Origin: a virus | Lineage: Duplodnaviria; Heunggongvirae; Uroviricota; Caudoviricetes | Virus record (IMG/VR): IMGVR_UViG_3300042474_001151 | Coordinates: 112,431 to 176,430 of that record | Reading direction: 5' to 3' (one strand) | DNA length: 64,000 bases | In this document: positions 2,572-54,018 of the stretch, piece after piece | Numbering within the stretch: position 1 is the first letter of the stretch | How the letters are laid out: the number at the start of each line of letters is the position of its first letter | Notes under the pieces: generated by a model | Databases searched by the model: none | Seen by the model: the letters and a program-made list of their open reading frames with translations, nothing else | What the model was told of the DNA's origin: nothing | Position numbers and translations under genes: made by a program

Positions 2572-3680
2572 TAAATAGTTTTTTTAATAACTATCATCAT
2601 ATTTCCTATTTGGTATTCACCAGACTCATAGTAAGGTATCGATAACCTTATTTTATGTAAAGTTCTAATGTCGTCATCTGTGAATTGATTAACCTCCGTA
2701 ATCATCACATCAACCGTATCTGTAAGGGTAAATTTCGACCTTAAATCGTATCGTGTATTCTTTTGTTCATTTTCAATATAAGTCTCAGGAATCTCCCCTA
2801 AATCGATTTTATCGAAGAATGGTTCTACTTCCATTAATCTATTTCTATTACGAGTAGTTAAACCCATATTAAAAGTCTTATAAGTAAAATTATCTTCTTC
2901 CCAATACCTAAGTTCATTGAATGCTGAGATTGGTACTCCCCACTTTCTAACAAAGTTTCTGTTAGATGAAACCTCATATAACATTCTATCTTTTTTGTAA
3001 TCATCACTAAATCTTGATGTCTGCGAAACAAAATGATAGGTGATTGCAGAATCACACGTTTTTAAATTATAACCTTTTAGTTTCGCACGGATTAAGAAAT
3101 CATCATCCTCACAAAATGCGGGTACAAAACTGAAACCATCAAACCCACCAATATCATCAAACATCTTTTTAAATCCTGACATAAAGAACACCGCACCATT
3201 GTATAGGTTCTTACTATCTTTCCATTGGTCCACATAAGCATTAAAATTATATTGGTCAAAGTTATCAAACCCCGAACCCAAATCTAATAATACTTTACCT
3301 GCTCTTTGATGACCTCTAAAAATTGGGGGTTCAATTGTTGTATAGGATAATAATGTATTTGGATTCTCATCTAATAATCTATCTAAGTTCTCTAAAAACT
3401 GTTCACCAATTACCATATCGTTGTGAATCAACACAAGTTTTTCAGTATCAACAAGTTTGATTGCCGCATTATATGTTTCAGAAAATGTCAACCTATCATC
3501 ATCATGAATAAAAGAAAGGTTCTTATCTTCCAATGATTCCAACCATTCTTTGGTTCCATCATATGAACCACCACTACTAATCACCAAAGGTGCTGTTGGG
3601 TATATGTTACGTAAACGATTATAACATTCTGTTGTTAAATCTATTTTATTGTAAACTGCTAATACAAAGGTTATATTCAT
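2571..3680 (-). CDS. Family-2 glycosyltransferase (GT-A fold)
   Basis: N-terminal FVLAVYNK...SSGGSYDGT pattern, with acidic DxD-like residues later. Confidence 0.6.
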   Translation of the reverse strand: MNITFVLAVYNKIDLTTECYNRLRNIYPTAPLVISSGGSYDGTKEWLESLEDKNLSFIHDDDRLTFSETYNAAIKLVDTEKLVLIHNDMVIGEQFLENLDRLLDENPNTLLSYTTIEPPIFRGHQRAGKVLLDLGSGFDNFDQYNFNAYVDQWKDSKNLYNGAVFFMSGFKKMFDDIGGFDGFSFVPAFCEDDDFLIRAKLKGYNLKTCDSAITYHFVSQTSRFSDDYKKDRMLYEVSSNRNFVRKWGVPISAFNELRYWEEDNFTYKTFNMGLTTRNRNRLMEVEPFFDKIDLGEIPETYIENEQKNTRYDLRSKFTLTDTVDVMITEVNQFTDDDIRTLHKIRLSIPYYESGEYQIGNMMIVIKKTI

Positions 3681-38098: not shown

Positions 38099-38130
38099 TT
38101 TGGAATATTCAAAAATTTTATTTATCTTTG
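38099..38130 (+). promoter_or_regulatory. Bacteroidetes-type promoter, class A
   Basis: TTTGGAATATTC, 20 nt, then TATCTTTG, 5 nt before the ATG at 38135 (short or no leader). Confidence 0.55.
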
Positions 38131-40542: not shown

Positions 40543-40574
40543 TTTGGAATATTCTAAAAATTAGAATATATTTG
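40543..40574 (+). promoter_or_regulatory. Bacteroidetes-type promoter, class A
   Basis: TTTGGAATATTC, 20 nt, then TATATTTG, 19 nt upstream of the ATG at 40594. Confidence 0.6.
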
Positions 40575-43454: not shown

Positions 43455-43472
43455 ATTTCAGGGTTTTTTTTT
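43445..43472 (+). terminator. Intrinsic terminator
   Basis: CCCTGAA-TAAA-TTTCAGGG followed by T9. Confidence 0.8.
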
Positions 43473-43501
43473 GGAATATACAAAATATTATTGTATATTT
43501 G
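43470..43501 (+). promoter_or_regulatory. Bacteroidetes-type promoter, class A
   Basis: TTTGGAATATAC, 20 nt, then TATATTTG, upstream of 43523. It abuts the terminator T-run. Confidence 0.6.
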
Positions 43502-50898: not shown

Positions 50899-50930
50899 TT
50901 TGGAATATACTAGAATATAACATATATTTG
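50899..50930 (+). promoter_or_regulatory. Bacteroidetes-type promoter, class A
   Basis: TTTGGAATATAC, 20 nt, then TATATTTG, 4 nt before the ATG at 50935. Confidence 0.55.
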
Positions 50931-51195: not shown

Positions 51196-51435
51196 GTTTG
51201 GAATTGTAATAAAGATATCTTATCTTTGTAAAAGAAATTAGTTCATTGACATTATTGGAAATATTATTTCATCTTCTTAATAGAAGATGGTGCCAGTTGT
51301 TTGGCACATAGTGAATTCTGAATAAACAGAATGTGGATTTATCCGTGGAGATTAATTTCTCACTCACTCAATACCTTTTATTTTTTAAAAATATTGTTCA
51401 CAACTCATTGTAACATAGAAGGTTGTATATGGATA

Positions 51436-51724
51436 GGTTGTGAATACCATTACTTTGAAAGGTTTATACAACAGAGTGACTGTCTAAATGACTACGACCC
51501 GGTTGTGAATACCCCTACTTTAAAAGGTATATACAACCGGTATAGCTCTCATGTCATTAATGATTTGGTTGTGAATACCATTACTTTGAAAGGTTTATAC
51601 AACAAACGATTGAAAGGTATATACAACCACCACATAAATGAAGATATATACAACATCCCATTCCATACTTTACATATTAAGGTATAAACAACGAATTGGT
51701 TATTAAAAGGTAATATACAACACG
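51436..51724 (+). repeat. Array of three 38-bp imperfect-palindromic direct repeats (GGTTGTGAATACCATTACTTTGAAAGGTTTATACAACA) with 27/28-bp spacers, then four decaying partial copies
   Basis: Copy 1 (51436-73) and copy 3 (51567-604) are identical. Copy 2 (51501-38) has five mismatches. The truncated copies keep AAAGGT[AT]TATACAAC at 51611, 51643, 51677 and 51705. The track ORF 51331..51687 is an artefact of reading through the repeats. Confidence 0.85.
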
Positions 51725-51775
51725 AAGTCTCACGACTTAAAGATTATTATTTCCAATAATATAAACAAAATAACC

Positions 51776-53143
51776 ATGTCCATTAAAACAAGGAAGATTA
51801 AATTGATTGCGGTTGGTGAAACTGCAAAGGATAGAACAAAGGTCTACAACTACATTAAGAAGGTTGCAGATGATTTGACCCAAGTGGGAAATGAGGTTAT
51901 AAGACTTCATGTGTGCAATCAATATGAAATTGACAGGTTAAAGGGTACAAATAATATTTCCAAGGGTGATGCAATTAAGATACTACAAGATTCACTTGGT
52001 ACATCCATAAGGAATTCGGGGTATCAACTACTAACAAAATTCCCATATATATCTTCTCAAGTAAGGACATGTTTCAATTCTGTTATATATAAGACCATAA
52101 GTGATAACTTCTATGATATCCTTAAAGGGAAAGTATCCATTCCATCATTTAGAAAATCTAATCTATCCATTCCATTTTCAGCCAATAATGATAAAGAAAC
52201 TGGTATAACGAACGCAATATACGCCGAGGGAGATAGATACTACATACAATTCCCATTATCGGGGGAAGAAAGAAAGATACATAAAAAAGTTGAATTATCC
52301 TTATTCTTCGGAAAAGATAGAAGTAATAATAGAATTATTGTAGATAGAATACTCAATAGTGAATATAAACTATGTGATAGTAACTTCAAAATAGAAGATA
52401 ATGATTTATATCTATTGATTACCTATAAACAACCAGATAGTATTAAACCCGAAATGGATGTTAATAAGGTAATGGGTATAGACTTAGGTATTAATAGACC
52501 CGTATCCATTTATATTTCCAATGAAAAACATCAACCACGACAGATTAATATAGGATTAAAGATACAACATGAAAGGATGAAATTCTATAAACATAGAAAA
52601 TCCCTACAGGAATCTTTAAAGTATTCTAAAGGTGGTCACGGTAGAAATAGAAAGTTGAAGTCTTTGGAAGATTTAAGAGATAAGGAAAAGAATTGGAGTC
52701 AATTAATAAATCATACTATCTCTCGAGAAGTTATCAGGATTGCTAACGAGTATAATGTTGGTGTTATCCATATGGAAGATTTAACAGGAATAACAACTAA
52801 CTCTAAGGATTACTTCATGAAGAGTTGGGCATACTACCAACTACAAACTTATATAGTATATAAAGCAAAAGAACTTGGGATAACCATATTATGGGTAGAC
52901 CCTAAGAATACTTCTAATACCTGTCCCACTTGTAAGGTTTCTGAACCATTGAATAGAAACGATAAAGATAAAACAAAATTCAGATGTATTAATTTGAATT
53001 GTAAGGACTTTGATATGGATAGAGATGCTGATATTGTAGGAGCATTTAATATAACACATACCTTAGGATTAGATGTAAAGTCTAATAGTAAAGAAGGTAG
53101 AATGAAAAAAGGTAAGGAGAAAAAATTTATGGAACAAGTATAA
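51776..53143 (+). CDS. tnpB: TnpB-like RNA-guided RuvC nuclease (IS200/IS605 OrfB/Cas12-like). No tnpA is nearby.
   Basis: RuvC-I MGIDLGINRP, RuvC-II VIHMEDLTGI, RuvC-III DMDRDADIVGAFNI, and zinc finger CPTC...FRCINLNC. Confidence 0.85.
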   Translation: MSIKTRKIKLIAVGETAKDRTKVYNYIKKVADDLTQVGNEVIRLHVCNQYEIDRLKGTNNISKGDAIKILQDSLGTSIRNSGYQLLTKFPYISSQVRTCFNSVIYKTISDNFYDILKGKVSIPSFRKSNLSIPFSANNDKETGITNAIYAEGDRYYIQFPLSGEERKIHKKVELSLFFGKDRSNNRIIVDRILNSEYKLCDSNFKIEDNDLYLLITYKQPDSIKPEMDVNKVMGIDLGINRPVSIYISNEKHQPRQINIGLKIQHERMKFYKHRKSLQESLKYSKGGHGRNRKLKSLEDLRDKEKNWSQLINHTISREVIRIANEYNVGVIHMEDLTGITTNSKDYFMKSWAYYQLQTYIVYKAKELGITILWVDPKNTSNTCPTCKVSEPLNRNDKDKTKFRCINLNCKDFDMDRDADIVGAFNITHTLGLDVKSNSKEGRMKKGKEKKFMEQV

Positions 53144-54018
53144 TATGTTCACTAATCTCTACCGTTCACGGAACGTGAACATAGGTATTTTGTGAACACT
53201 TTTACCCTGAAGGGAGGAGACGAGAGTCTCCGACCGTACAATTACCCCCTATAAAATTACCCCTCAGAACCCCTCCATAGGGGTTTTATTTTACCCCGAA
53301 TTTTTTCCTGTTTATACCACTAAAAACCCCACTTTTTCCTGTCTGTTTTATCGTGATCAATTAATATATCTAAAACTATCTTTTTCTATCCCATATTTGG
53401 GTTCTAGTATAATTTATCCACAATTCCCCACTTTCTCCCACTTACTAGGAATATACCCTGGGATTGACCCGTGAGCGAATCACAGACCATTTTATTTTTT
53501 CTACCAGAATATACCCCTAATATCATTATATTATTACGGTCGGACTCTTCGAGTCCTCCCTTCAGGATGTCATACAAGTGTCTTAGTATAACCCTTTATA
53601 TATTATATTAATCTGTCATACATTAGGTTCCACGTGGAACCCTGAAGGGGGACCGAAGGTCCCCCGTATAATGAAACATTCGTAATACGGGATGAAGGGG
53701 ACCGAAGGTCCCCGAGTATACTTATAATACTTTTATACGGTCCTGATGTGATACGTCTATAATCCCTGAACCGTAATACAAACATTACTGGGGTGAAGTA
53801 GAAAATGGTTTGCCAAACAACATTAACATTACTGGGGAGACCAATATTGTTTGGCAGATTATACGGGGACCTTCGGTCCCCTTCAGGAGAATCTTAGAAT
53901 AATCCTATGGAAATTAAAAAAACCCTTAGGGATTTTCCGAAGGGTTCTTAGTATAGTACAATATATGTCTTACAAGGAAAGGATGAAGGGGGACCGAAGG
54001 TCCCCCGTAAGTAATACT
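53144..54018. repeat. GC-rich structured non-coding region with nested palindromic repeats. A TnpB-associated ncRNA/right end or a MITE-like insertion is possible.
   Basis: Four hairpin units (GGGGGACC-GAAG-GGTCCCCC) at 53647-65, 53697-713, 53865-81 (inverted) and 53988-54006. Perfect palindrome GGTTCCACGTGGAACC at 53639. Imperfect 34-bp inverted repeats at 53205..53238 and 53535..53566. A 26-nt partial copy of the upstream array repeat at 53185-53210. AACATTACTGGGG motifs at 53784 and 53824. Confidence 0.8.

What the first reader, a model, noticed from the sequence alone, without database searches (positions are those of the whole stretch)
51196..54018. TnpB/Cas12-like nuclease flanked by a CRISPR-like mini-array and an 875-bp structured GC-rich non-coding region
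A 455-aa RuvC/zinc-finger nuclease (TnpB family) sits in a viral-looking genome with no tnpA partner. Immediately 5' is an array with CRISPR-like geometry: 38-bp hairpin-forming direct repeats and 27-28-bp unique spacers. Immediately 3' is a long non-coding tract of nested stable hairpins. This tract includes a 26-nt copy (about 20/26 identical) of the repeat's 5' half, in the same orientation, at 53185-53210. TnpB guide RNAs (omega/reRNA) and the tracr/crRNAs of compact type V systems are encoded in exactly these positions. The locus could therefore be a phage-borne RNA-guided nuclease system. It could also be an IS1341-like element whose hairpin-bearing end has been reiterated. Either option would be unusual for a phage.
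Basis: partly seen in the sequence, partly recalled or inferred. Interest (0 to 1): 0.85.

Follow-up and report, generated by a model that had tools for sequence, protein, structure and literature searches.

The report
Phage-borne miniature Cas12f CRISPR system
A large phage of Bacteroidota carries a 455-aa Cas12f-type RNA-guided nuclease with its own guide-RNA scaffold and a small, partly decayed CRISPR array, which makes it a new member of a known kind; the structured DNA tract after the gene is a separate element of the phage.

Summary
ORF 51776-53143 is a Cas12f-clade (formerly V-U3) TnpB derivative. It gives full-length matches to Cas12u3 and Cas12f profiles, and its nearest solved structures are Al3Cas12f and AsCas12f. 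The RuvC and zinc-finger residues are invariant.

The array has three 36-nt repeats, two spacers of 29 and 30 nt, and four 3'-half repeats. A sister strain (96% protein identity) keeps the leader and trailer but has different spacers. More distant homologues (38-70% identity), on viral contigs up to 311 kb, carry arrays with matching repeats.

The guide scaffold lies upstream of the array, at 51233-51380, behind a Bacteroidota-type promoter. It is not in the 3' tract. Its fold shows covariation, its anti-repeat covaries with the repeat, and it aligns with validated Al3Cas12f tracrRNAs. In relatives the same scaffold also sits at the gene's 3' end, fused to a guide, like an omega RNA.

The 3' tract (53206-54009) holds six conserved hairpin units. 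Sister phages keep it where an HNH gene replaces the Cas12f cassette, so it is independent of the nuclease. Its function is unknown. No spacer targets were found. Verdict: new member of a known kind, of moderate interest.

The parts
51197..51228 (+). Bacteroidota-type promoter: -33 TTTG at 51197-51200 and -7 TAtcTTTG at 51221-51228. It is the likely start of the scaffold-array(-cas12f) transcript.
   Evidence: The pattern TTTG-N17-23-TAnnTTTG occurs 19 times in the window against 5.1 expected, and its strand follows gene orientation. This copy sits directly upstream of the scaffold. TAnnTTTG also precedes the scaffolds in relatives, read. Transcription itself is inferred.
51233..51380 (+). Guide-RNA scaffold (tracrRNA-like). 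It has a P1 hairpin at 51290-51307 with a GUUGU loop, a long-range stem AGUGA/UCACU that encloses two hairpins, and the CACUCAC motif.
   Evidence: nhmmer finds it in all family loci. In the 25-copy alignment A3, 97% of cells pair against 34-48% when slid, and 13 of 20 pairs show compensatory changes. The covariance model scores 100.6 bits, E about 1e-23, and this is the only copy in the window. It aligns colinearly with validated Al3Cas12f, Al1 and MG119-3 tracrRNAs. No Rfam family matches.
51370..51378 (+). Anti-repeat AAUACCUUU, complementary to AAAGGUAU in the 3' half of the repeat.
   Evidence: Across 20 scaffold/array pairs, 85.6% of cells pair against 31-59% when slid, and 6 of 8 pairs change on both sides. 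Examples are ACUAU/AUAGU in L084 and CAACC/GGUUG in L007 (on a hand-assembled alignment A5). The predicted duplex energy is -10.8 kcal/mol.
51381..51436 (+). Linker between the scaffold and the first repeat. It is U-rich at its start and contains GGUUGUAUAU (51424-51433), which is also complementary to the repeat's 3' end.
   Evidence: Sequence reading and inverted repeat I13. It is conserved in the sister strain. Its role is not established.
51437..51603 (+). Intact part of the CRISPR array: R1 51437-51472, spacer 1 51473-51501 (29 nt), R2 51502-51537, spacer 2 51538-51567 (30 nt), R3 51568-51603.
   Evidence: the repeat finder family D1 and TRF period 66. Sister strain L001-L004 has a conserved leader and different spacers. 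Homologous arrays occur in L005-L009 and L097-L105.
51604..51721 (+). Degenerate distal array: 3'-half repeats at 51610-51627, 51641-51654, 51679-51692 and 51705-51721, with intervening stretches of 6, 13, 24 and 12 nt.
   Evidence: Comparison with L001 shows a repeat-to-repeat deletion, because GAATTGGTTATTAAAAGG and the terminal unit are shared. Arrays made only of such short repeats exist in L084, L101 and L102.
51722..51775 (+). Trailer. It is the last 'guide' position and also the 5' UTR of cas12f, and it is identical in the sister strain.
51776..53143 (+). cas12f-like gene, 455 aa. RuvC residues D236/E334/D419; zinc finger C383/C386/C404/C409.
   Evidence: PADLOC Cas12u3 1.1e-82 and Cas12f 9e-81, both full length. 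PDB profile search: Al3Cas12f 1.7e-78 and AsCas12f 5.5e-58. AF2 model with pLDDT 84; Foldseek top hits are all Cas12f, and TnpBs rank lower. Catalytic residues are invariant in 30 homologues. 509 homologues were found in metagenomes.
53144..53200 (+). It may be a vestige of a lost downstream scaffold (GTTCAC-ggaac-GTGAAC-ATAGGTA resembles P1 plus AUAGUGA).
   Evidence: Absent in L001/L002. The match to the repeat is 18/26, which is not above chance. The covariance model gives no hit. The vestige reading is inference only.
53268..53292 (+). Intrinsic terminator for the cas12f transcript: AACCCCU-ccau-AGGGGUU followed by UUAUUUU.
   Evidence: Sequence reading. The scan flags an overlapping hairpin plus T-run at 53280-53297. 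It is conserved in L001 and L177.
53206..54009 (.). Conserved intergenic tract with six units 'yTGAA-[G/C stem]-GAA-[stem]-GTA'. Units on the + strand: 53206-38, 53641-68, 53691-718, 53982-54009. Units on the - strand: 53535-66, 53862-87. It is NOT part of the Cas12f system.
   Evidence: GGGACCNNNGGTCCC occurs 4 times here and nowhere else in 64 kb, against 0.03 expected. The stems change compensatorily among the window, L001, L177 and L005. The tract is present without cas12f in L177/L178. There is no Rfam hit and no scaffold hit.
53916..53946 (-). Intrinsic terminator for the converging minus-strand block: AACCCUU-loop-AAGGGUU followed by UUUUU.
   Evidence: Sequence reading. It is conserved in L001. 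The scan tool does not flag it because the loop exceeds 8 nt.

Best explanation
This is a type V-F-like (Cas12f clade, formerly V-U3) CRISPR-Cas module carried by a large phage (contig of at least 166 kb) of a Bacteroidota host.

Proposed mechanism, step by step:
1. A phage promoter at 51197-51228 drives one transcript. It runs through a roughly 150-nt structured scaffold, a short array and cas12f, and ends at the terminator at 53268-53292.
2. The scaffold acts as the tracrRNA. Its anti-repeat AAUACCUUU pairs with AAAGGUAU in the 3' half of each repeat. Its P1 loop GUUGU probably pairs with the repeat's last bases ACAAC as a pseudoknot.
3. The 3' half of a repeat plus the spacer that follows is therefore the working guide unit. 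This explains why half repeats persist.
4. Cas12f, probably as a dimer like its solved relatives, uses the scaffold:crRNA duplex to cut PAM-flanked double-stranded DNA that matches the spacers. The most likely targets are competing phages or other mobile elements during co-infection.

What is shown: the identity of the protein, the scaffold fold with its covariation, the anti-repeat/repeat covariation, the spacer differences between strains, and the cassette's location in a variable hotspot.

What is inferred: co-transcription, RNA processing, dimerisation, cleavage, the PAM and the targets.

The 3' hairpin tract is a separate conserved element of the phage, located between converging transcription blocks.
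For: Protein:
- Full-length matches to Cas12u3 and Cas12f profiles.
- The best PDB relatives are Al3Cas12f, AsCas12f, SpCas12f, CnCas12f and OsCas12f, by sequence profile and by fold. TnpBs score much worse.
- The DED and CCCC residues are invariant.

Array:
- Repeats and spacers.
- The sister strain has different leader-proximal spacers while the flanks are conserved.
- Arrays of up to 12 repeats, with co-varying repeat sequence, occur in homologues of 38-70% identity.

Scaffold:
- Present in every family locus on the gene's strand.
- Strong covariation.
- A single copy in the window, at 100.6 bits.
- Anti-repeat/repeat covariation.
- Colinear with experimentally validated Al3Cas12f, Al1 and MG119-3 tracrRNAs. 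The loop GUUGG paired to repeat end CCAAC in those RNAs becomes GUUGU paired to ACAAC here (PMC13186708).

Promoter.

Phage context:
- IMG/VR contigs of 52-311 kb.
- A source contig of 166 kb.
- PHROG hits in the window.

Hotspot: in L177/L178 an HNH-like ORF replaces the cassette between the same flanking genes.
Against: - No RNA data exist, so transcription, processing and the 3' end of the scaffold are unproven.
- The window's array is small and half decayed. Only two or three spacers have a usable length.
- The array is identical in four samples of the same strain, so there is no sign of ongoing acquisition.
- No protospacer was found: about 76 family spacers against 50,697 phage records, four exact 20-mers against IMG/VR, and no self-target or hit in sister phages.
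- No cas1, cas2 or cas4 lies nearby.
- The anti-repeat test used an alignment assembled by hand.
- The curated NCBIfam Cas12f2 model is far below its cut-off (111.7 against 450).
Confidence: 0.8

Rival explanations
1. It is an ordinary IS200/IS605-family (IS1341-like) TnpB insertion. The 'array' is a reiterated transposon end, and any guide RNA serves transposon retention or homing rather than CRISPR-type targeting.
For: - The protein passes the NCBIfam RNA-guided TnpB subfamily threshold, and PHROGs call it a transposase.
- In relatives the scaffold overlaps the gene's 3' end and runs into a single guide made of flanking DNA, as an omega RNA does (L006 5344-5470 and L097).
- The cassette is present or absent between sister phages, so it has moved or been exchanged at some time.
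Against: - No tnpA or other recombinase lies within 5 kb.
- No IS ends or target duplication are evident at the cassette borders.
- There is a single copy in 64 kb.
- The window has no scaffold at the gene's 3' end.
- Repeats are regularly spaced with unrelated 29-30-nt spacers that differ between strains.
- Sequence and fold are closer to Cas12f than to solved TnpBs.
Confidence: 0.06
2. It is a decaying remnant. The nuclease gene is intact, but the array in this strain is a fossil that no longer supplies useful guides. Alternatively the protein has a guide-independent or regulatory role.
For: - Four of the seven repeat units are half repeats, and three of the intervening stretches are only 6-13 nt.
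- A repeat-to-repeat deletion is visible relative to L001.
- The array is identical across four samples.
- No targets were found.
- The downstream scaffold that relatives carry has been lost.
Against: - The catalytic and zinc residues are invariant.
- Scaffold, promoter and the first three repeats are intact and conserved.
- Lineages whose arrays consist only of short 3'-half repeats keep co-varying anti-repeats, so half repeats can be functional units.
- Missing targets are expected for uncultured freshwater viromes.
Confidence: 0.1
3. The 875-nt 3' tract encodes the omega/tracr RNA of the nuclease, marked by a repeat-like copy at about 53185-53210.
For: - In many relatives a scaffold does lie immediately 3' of the gene.
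- The tract is highly structured.
- An 18/26 match to the repeat's 5' half exists at 53188-53213.
Against: - The covariance model finds no scaffold there, even with filters off.
- 18/26 occurs by chance elsewhere in the window.
- Its 5' part is in a 57-nt indel that the sister strain lacks.
- The tract is conserved in phages that have no cas12f at this site, and in L005 it lies 1.8 kb away behind another gene.
- A terminator separates it from cas12f.
Confidence: 0.02

Closest known systems
Type V-F CRISPR-Cas12f of the AsCas12f / Al3Cas12f / OsCas12f group (formerly V-U3)
   Same: - A miniature TnpB-derived effector with a RuvC domain and zinc finger. These proteins are its best sequence and fold relatives.
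- An adjacent array without adaptation genes.
- A long tracrRNA whose layout aligns with the Al3Cas12f sgRNA: P1 hairpin, UAGU..GA, CACUCA, then the anti-repeat (PMC13186708).
   Different: - Only about 25-27% identical to those proteins.
- Phage-borne rather than chromosomal.
- The scaffold and array lie upstream of the gene and in the same orientation, whereas Cas12 arrays are usually downstream (PMC10691335).
- The array mixes full and half repeats.
- Relatives also carry scaffold-guide fusions.
- There is no experimental data.
IS200/IS605 TnpB with omega RNA (e.g. ISDra2, ISFba1)
   Same: - The same protein superfamily.
- In relatives the scaffold overlaps the gene's 3' end and is fused to a 3' guide.
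- The repeat's 3' end corresponds to the guide-adjacent end of the scaffold.
   Different: - No TnpA and no transposon ends.
- Multiple unrelated spacers.
- The window copy has no 3' scaffold.
- Structural similarity to solved TnpBs is weaker (E 1e-14 to 1e-10, against 1e-25 for Cas12f).
Bacteroidota dCas12f-sigmaE systems and the neighbouring Cas12f1 / V-U40-43 clade
   Same: - Bacteroidota setting.
- A solved dCas12f is a clear relative (9n9c, 4e-36).
- Guide RNAs lie upstream of arrays, with half repeats fused to the scaffold and tandem guide-RNA arrays (compare L102). These features are described in PMC10691335 and PMC13472631.
   Different: - Here the nuclease residues are intact and the C-terminus is complete.
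- There is no rpoE or HTH partner.
- The module is carried by a phage.
Phage-encoded compact type V effectors (Cas12j/CasPhi, Cas-lambda, Cas12p 'hacker', Cas12r)
   Same: A phage-borne single-effector system with a small array, no adaptation genes, and a presumed role in conflicts between mobile elements.
   Different: These are different protein families. Cas12p (9jfs) and Cas12j match only marginally by sequence (E 1e-3 to 1e-2). This protein is much smaller than the 700-900 aa of most of them.
TranC (transposon-CRISPR intermediates)
   Same: The family spans omega-like single guides, scaffold plus a few repeats, and full arrays. This is the kind of continuum proposed for the split of omega RNA into tracrRNA and crRNA.
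   Different: The solved LaTranC is only a distant structural match (E 3.9e-8). The TranC paper was not read here, so the comparison rests on general knowledge.
Type VI-B (Cas13b) and II-C repeats of Bacteroidota
   Same: - 36-nt repeats with GUUGU...ACAAC ends and about 30-nt spacers.
- 21-23/36 identity to the PspCas13b repeat, a level that 0 of 20,000 shuffles reach.
- The same end-paired hairpin.
- Flavobacterium columnare II-C and VI-B repeats are 36 bp with GTTGT ends (PMC8092290).
   Different: The associated effector here is Cas12f, and the repeat co-varies with the Cas12f scaffold. Only one Cas13b repeat was verified from text, and host arrays were not examined.

Membership tests
Type V-F CRISPR-Cas (Cas12f) | Miniature (about 400-700 aa) TnpB-derived effector with a tripartite RuvC (D-E-D) and a zinc-finger/TNB insertion, recognised by Cas12f profiles | tested here: met
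   - 455 aa.
- PADLOC Cas12u3 1.1e-82 and Cas12f 9e-81, both over the full length.
- PDB profile hits to Al3Cas12f, AsCas12f, SpCas12f, CnCas12f and OsCas12f.
- The Foldseek top 22 hits are all Cas12f or dCas12f.
- D236/E334/D419 and four Cys are invariant.
Type V-F CRISPR-Cas (Cas12f) | Adjacent CRISPR array with unique spacers | tested here: met
   - Three 36-nt repeats, four half repeats, and spacers of 29 and 30 nt.
- The spacers differ in the sister strain.
- Arrays are conserved across the family.
Type V-F CRISPR-Cas (Cas12f) | tracrRNA with an anti-repeat that pairs with the crRNA repeat | tested here: met
   - Scaffold at 51233-51380 with covariation.
- The anti-repeat co-varies with the repeat.
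- It is colinear with validated Al3Cas12f, Al1 and MG119-3 tracrRNAs.
- This is met computationally. Expression has not been shown.
Type V-F CRISPR-Cas (Cas12f) | Curated equivalog threshold of the NCBIfam Cas12f2 model | tested here: not met
   111.7 bits against a cut-off of 450, and only the C-terminal half aligns. It is therefore not Cas12f2. The clade assignment rests on the other profiles.
Type V-F CRISPR-Cas (Cas12f) | RNA-guided, PAM-dependent dsDNA cleavage by an asymmetric homodimer on one guide RNA | not testable with these tools
   This needs biochemistry or cryo-EM. The idea rests only on similarity to dimeric relatives.
IS200/IS605 TnpB-omegaRNA transposon | TnpB-family protein | tested here: met
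   NF040570 at 146.3 bits against a cut-off of 100. Pfam OrfB_IS605 is below its cut-off, at 28.1 against 30.5.
IS200/IS605 TnpB-omegaRNA transposon | Omega RNA scaffold that overlaps the 3' end of tnpB, with a guide taken from flanking DNA | tested here: not met
   There is no scaffold 3' of the gene in the window. The arrangement is present in relatives L006, L009, L097, L098, L084, L008 and L099-L105.
IS200/IS605 TnpB-omegaRNA transposon | TnpA (Y1 or serine) partner and/or LE/RE ends | tested here: not met
   No such ORF lies within about 5 kb on either side. The cassette borders against L177 show no terminal structures. ORFs in the rest of the window were not all scanned.
IS200/IS605 TnpB-omegaRNA transposon | Multiple near-identical copies in one genome | tested here: inconclusive
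   There is a single copy in the 64-kb window. The rest of the contig of at least 166 kb was not available.
Bacteroidota II-C/VI-B repeat class | 36-nt repeat with 5'-GTTGT and ACAAC-3' ends and about 30-nt spacers | tested here: met
   PMC8092290; the PspCas13b repeat from bioRxiv 10.1101/2023.03.10.532141. This is a resemblance only. No cas13b or cas9 was identified among the window proteins that were scanned.

The most novel reading that the evidence does not exclude
The phage's Cas12f array may belong to the same repeat class as its Bacteroidota host's II-C/VI-B arrays: 36 nt, GUUGU...ACAAC ends, and about 60% identity to a Cas13b repeat. If so, a phage with no cas1/cas2 could borrow the host's Cas1-Cas2 to load new spacers, or its transcripts could cross-talk with host Cas13b. 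That would be a phage-side adaptive system that parasitises host machinery. The same family also preserves, in living genomes, every stage between an omega-RNA single guide and a tracrRNA plus CRISPR array.
Probability: 0.15. Interest if true: 0.8.

Novelty: new member of a known kind. Interest (0 to 1): 0.45.

Why it matters
- It adds a large family to the Cas12f clade: 509 homologues at E <= 0.001 in the search. The nucleases are about 450 aa, phage-borne and apparently active. They come with a defined scaffold, anti-repeat and minimal repeat, so guide RNAs can be designed and tested directly.
- Relatives with naturally fused scaffold-guide units are ready-made single guides.
- The family shows omega-like single guides, tandem guide-RNA units, half-repeat arrays and full arrays around one protein. 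This is useful comparative material on how type V arrays arose from TnpB.
- The cassette sits in a hotspot that holds an HNH endonuclease in sister phages. This points to a role in phage-versus-phage competition.
- None of this overturns current views.

Tried and rejected
- blastn of the whole locus against 50,697 phage records gave no match.
- A first scan of viral contigs with the single protein found nothing. The alignment-based scan worked.
- Spacer targets were not found. Exact 20-mers of both window spacers and of two spacers from relatives gave no hit in IMG/VR, apart from an array's own contig. The two window spacers against phages gave only noise. About 76 concatenated family spacers against phages gave no match. 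All spacers against the window and all fetched loci gave no protospacer.
- Rfam scan of 50.5-54.5 kb gave only a sub-threshold miRNA chance hit.
- The covariance model run on the 3' tract found nothing.
- A replication origin in the 3' tract: one perfect DnaA box (53414-53422), but no enrichment of DnaA-like boxes (31 found against 31 expected in the window). Dropped.
- The 3' units as a MITE with terminal inverted repeats: the 22-nt inverted pair in the window is not kept as a pair in L001. Only the local hairpins are conserved. Dropped.
- Fanzor or a giant-virus origin was considered early because of the AT-rich genome. It was rejected on the Bacteroidota promoters, the PHROG hits and the Cas12f affinity.
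- Cas12p 'hacker' identity was rejected, because the match is only marginal.
- Literature text searches for two remembered Cas13b repeats found nothing. Only the PspCas13b repeat could be verified.

Full report
**What is in the sequence**

The region lies in a 32% G+C, tightly packed genome. The window carries phage-family proteins such as DNA methyltransferases and several PHROG families. It also has 19 Bacteroidota-type promoters (TTTG-N17-23-TAnnTTTG) against 5.1 expected, and their strand follows gene orientation. The exact protein occurs on a 166,073-bp JGI contig and in three further samples. Close homologues lie on IMG/VR viral contigs of 52-311 kb. The host is therefore most likely a member of the Bacteroidota, and the element is a large phage.

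ORF 51776-53143 encodes 455 aa. Upstream lie three 36-nt repeats (51437-72, 51502-37, 51568-603) with spacers of 29 and 30 nt. Four copies of only the repeat's 3' half follow, at irregular short distances. Downstream is an 875-nt stretch without credible ORFs. It has 38-42% G+C and folds with z = -7.6.

**The protein**

The protein passes the NCBIfam RNA-guided TnpB threshold. More specific comparisons place it in the Cas12f clade:
- Full-length matches to PADLOC Cas12u3 (1.1e-82) and a Cas12f model (9e-81).
- A family profile finds Al3Cas12f (1.7e-78), AsCas12f (5.5e-58), CnCas12f, OsCas12f and SpCas12f as the best solved relatives.
- An AlphaFold model (pLDDT 84) retrieves the same Cas12f structures first (E about 1e-25). 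Solved TnpBs score 1e-14 to 1e-10, and Cas12p, Fanzor2 and TranC score lower still.

The RuvC D236/E334/D419 and the four zinc-finger cysteines are invariant in 30 homologues, so the enzyme is probably active. It is not Cas12f2 by NCBI's curated threshold. It is also not the phage 'Cas12 hacker' family.

**The array is a real CRISPR-type array**

- Four contigs encoding a 96%-identical protein keep the same neighbours, the same 240-nt leader and the same trailer. Their leader-proximal spacers are different, and they carry extra units. One junction shows that the window array lost units through repeat-to-repeat deletion.
- Homologues down to 38% identity all have arrays of the same repeat type, with up to 12 repeats. 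The arrays lie upstream, downstream or on both sides of the gene.
- Within the window's own strain the array is identical in four samples.
- No cas1, cas2 or cas4 is nearby. This is typical of the wider Cas12f branch (PMC10691335).

**The guide scaffold**

What looked like a leader is a conserved structured RNA gene.
- nhmmer finds it in every family locus, always on the gene's strand.
- In an alignment of 25 copies, a four-helix structure is 97% paired, against 34-48% when the partners are slid. Thirteen of 20 pairs show compensatory changes.
- A covariance model scores the window copy (51266-51380) at 100.6 bits. It finds no other copy in 64 kb, and none in the 3' tract with filters off.
- Directly after the invariant CACUCAC lies AAUACCUUU, complementary to AAAGGUAU in the repeat's 3' half. 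Across 20 scaffold/array pairs this duplex is 85.6% paired, against 31-59% when slid. Six of its eight pairs change on both sides, for example ACUAU/AUAGU in L084 and CAACC/GGUUG in L007. That alignment was assembled by hand.
- The validated guide RNAs of Al3Cas12f, Al1Cas12f and MG119-3 align colinearly with the scaffold. The shared parts are the P1 hairpin, UAGU..GA, CACUCA and the anti-repeat (supplement of PMC13186708).
- In those RNAs the P1 loop is GUUGG and the repeat ends in CCAAC. Here the loop is GUUGU and the repeat ends in ACAAC. This compensatory difference suggests a pseudoknot between the loop and the repeat end (inference).
- The minimal guide unit would then be the repeat's 3' half plus the spacer. 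That fits the half repeats in the window and the lineages whose arrays consist only of 14-17-nt repeats (L084, L101, L102).

A Bacteroidota promoter lies just upstream of the scaffold. No clear terminator precedes cas12f, and a canonical one follows it at 53268-53292. A single transcript covering scaffold, array and gene is therefore the simplest reading (inference).

**Relation to TnpB**

In many relatives a second scaffold overlaps the 3' end of the ORF or follows it. That copy runs through a short loop straight into the repeat's 3' half and then a guide:
- one guide only in L006;
- one or two further repeats in L009 and L098;
- three to seven repeats in L007, L008, L100, L104 and L105;
- three tandem scaffold-guide units in L102.

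This is the omega-RNA position and logic. It matches the published scenarios for the split of omega RNA into tracrRNA and crRNA and for their re-fusion (PMC10691335, PMC13472631).

The window lineage has lost the downstream copy. The 57 nt at 53144-53200 may be its vestige. That stretch is absent from the sister strain, is invisible to the covariance model, and its 18/26 match to the repeat is at chance level.

**The 3' tract**

The tract contains six units of the form yTGAA-[6-8-bp G/C stem]-GAA-[stem]-GTA, in both orientations. The stems differ between the window, L001/L002, L177 and L005 but always pair, and the flanks are conserved.

The tract is conserved in sister phages L177 and L178. 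These phages have the same flanking genes (91% and 65% protein identity). At the cassette's site they carry a 72-aa ORF and a 184-aa HNH-like ORF instead of scaffold, array and cas12f. In L005 the tract lies 1.8 kb away, behind another gene. It is therefore independent of the nuclease.

It sits between a plus-strand and a minus-strand terminator, where two transcription blocks converge. It has no Rfam match and no enrichment of DnaA boxes. Its function remains unknown. The candidates are protein-binding hairpins or small RNAs.

**Targets**

No protospacer was found for the window spacers or for about 76 family spacers. By analogy with other phage-encoded CRISPR systems, and given the hotspot it shares with a homing endonuclease, targeting of competing phages or other mobile elements is the most likely role. 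This is inference.

**Seen in passing**

The family repeats are 21-23/36 identical, without gaps, to the PspCas13b (type VI-B) repeat, and they fold the same way. Flavobacterium II-C and VI-B repeats are also 36 bp with GTTGT ends, and those two systems share Cas1-Cas2 in trans (PMC8092290). The phage array may thus be of the host's repeat class. This leaves open the use of host adaptation machinery by the phage.

**Verdict**

The nuclease, the array and the structured tract are real, the geometry is corrected, and the repeat-like 3' copy is not supported.
It is a phage-borne RNA-guided nuclease system, but the scaffold is upstream and the 3' tract is unrelated.
- It is a new member of a known kind (Cas12f / type V-F, V-U3-like) with an instructive guide-RNA architecture.
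- Interest is moderate.

Noticed in passing
window 51437-51603; L006, L007, L008, L105 arrays: The 36-nt repeats are 21-23/36 identical in ungapped register to the PspCas13b (type VI-B) direct repeat, and 0 of 20,000 shuffles reach that level. They share its end-paired hairpin. They have the same length and GTTGT ends as Flavobacterium II-C/VI-B repeats, which share Cas1-Cas2 in trans (PMC8092290).
   Followed up: partly
window 53206-54009 (units at 53206-38, 53535-66, 53641-68, 53691-718, 53862-87, 53982-54009): There are six syntenic 'yTGAA-GC hairpin-GTA' units. Their stems change compensatorily between strains, and they are conserved in sister phages that lack cas12f. Their function is unknown.
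   Followed up: partly
L177 7319-8132 (IMG/VR contig 3300044846_003114, 131 kb); also L178: Sister phages carry a 72-aa ORF and a 184-aa HNH-like ORF at the site occupied by the scaffold-array-cas12f cassette in the window, between the same flanking genes. The site is a hotspot for selfish or accessory nucleases.
   Followed up: partly
L102 1694-1840, 1914-1994, 2137-2212: Three tandem copies of the whole scaffold, each fused to its own guide. This is a 'guide-RNA array' rather than a repeat-spacer array.
   Followed up: no
L105 3091-3118 and 3157-3184: Two neighbouring spacers differ at only 4 of 28 positions. They look like variants of one target or a duplicated unit.
   Followed up: no
window, 19 sites, e.g. 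38099-38130, 40543-40574, 43470-43501, 50899-50930, 51197-51228: A recurrent promoter-like motif TTTGGAAT...TAnnTTTG (Bacteroidota -33/-7 type) lies in front of genes on the coding strand, with 19 found against 5.1 expected. This points to a Bacteroidota host.
   Followed up: partly
window 53414-53422: A single perfect DnaA-box consensus, TTATCCACA, lies inside the 3' tract and is conserved in L001. There is no enrichment of near-matches, so there is no support for an origin.
   Followed up: yes
L009 about 2960-3090: The sequence upstream of the scaffold looks tRNA- or tmRNA-like by eye. It was not checked with ARAGORN.
   Followed up: no
L084 (contig CBFHJJ010000001.1, 248 kb, labelled a Flavobacteriaceae MAG): A family member with scaffolds on both sides of the gene lies on a 248-kb contig binned as Flavobacteriaceae. 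It may be a mis-binned large phage or a host hint.
   Followed up: no
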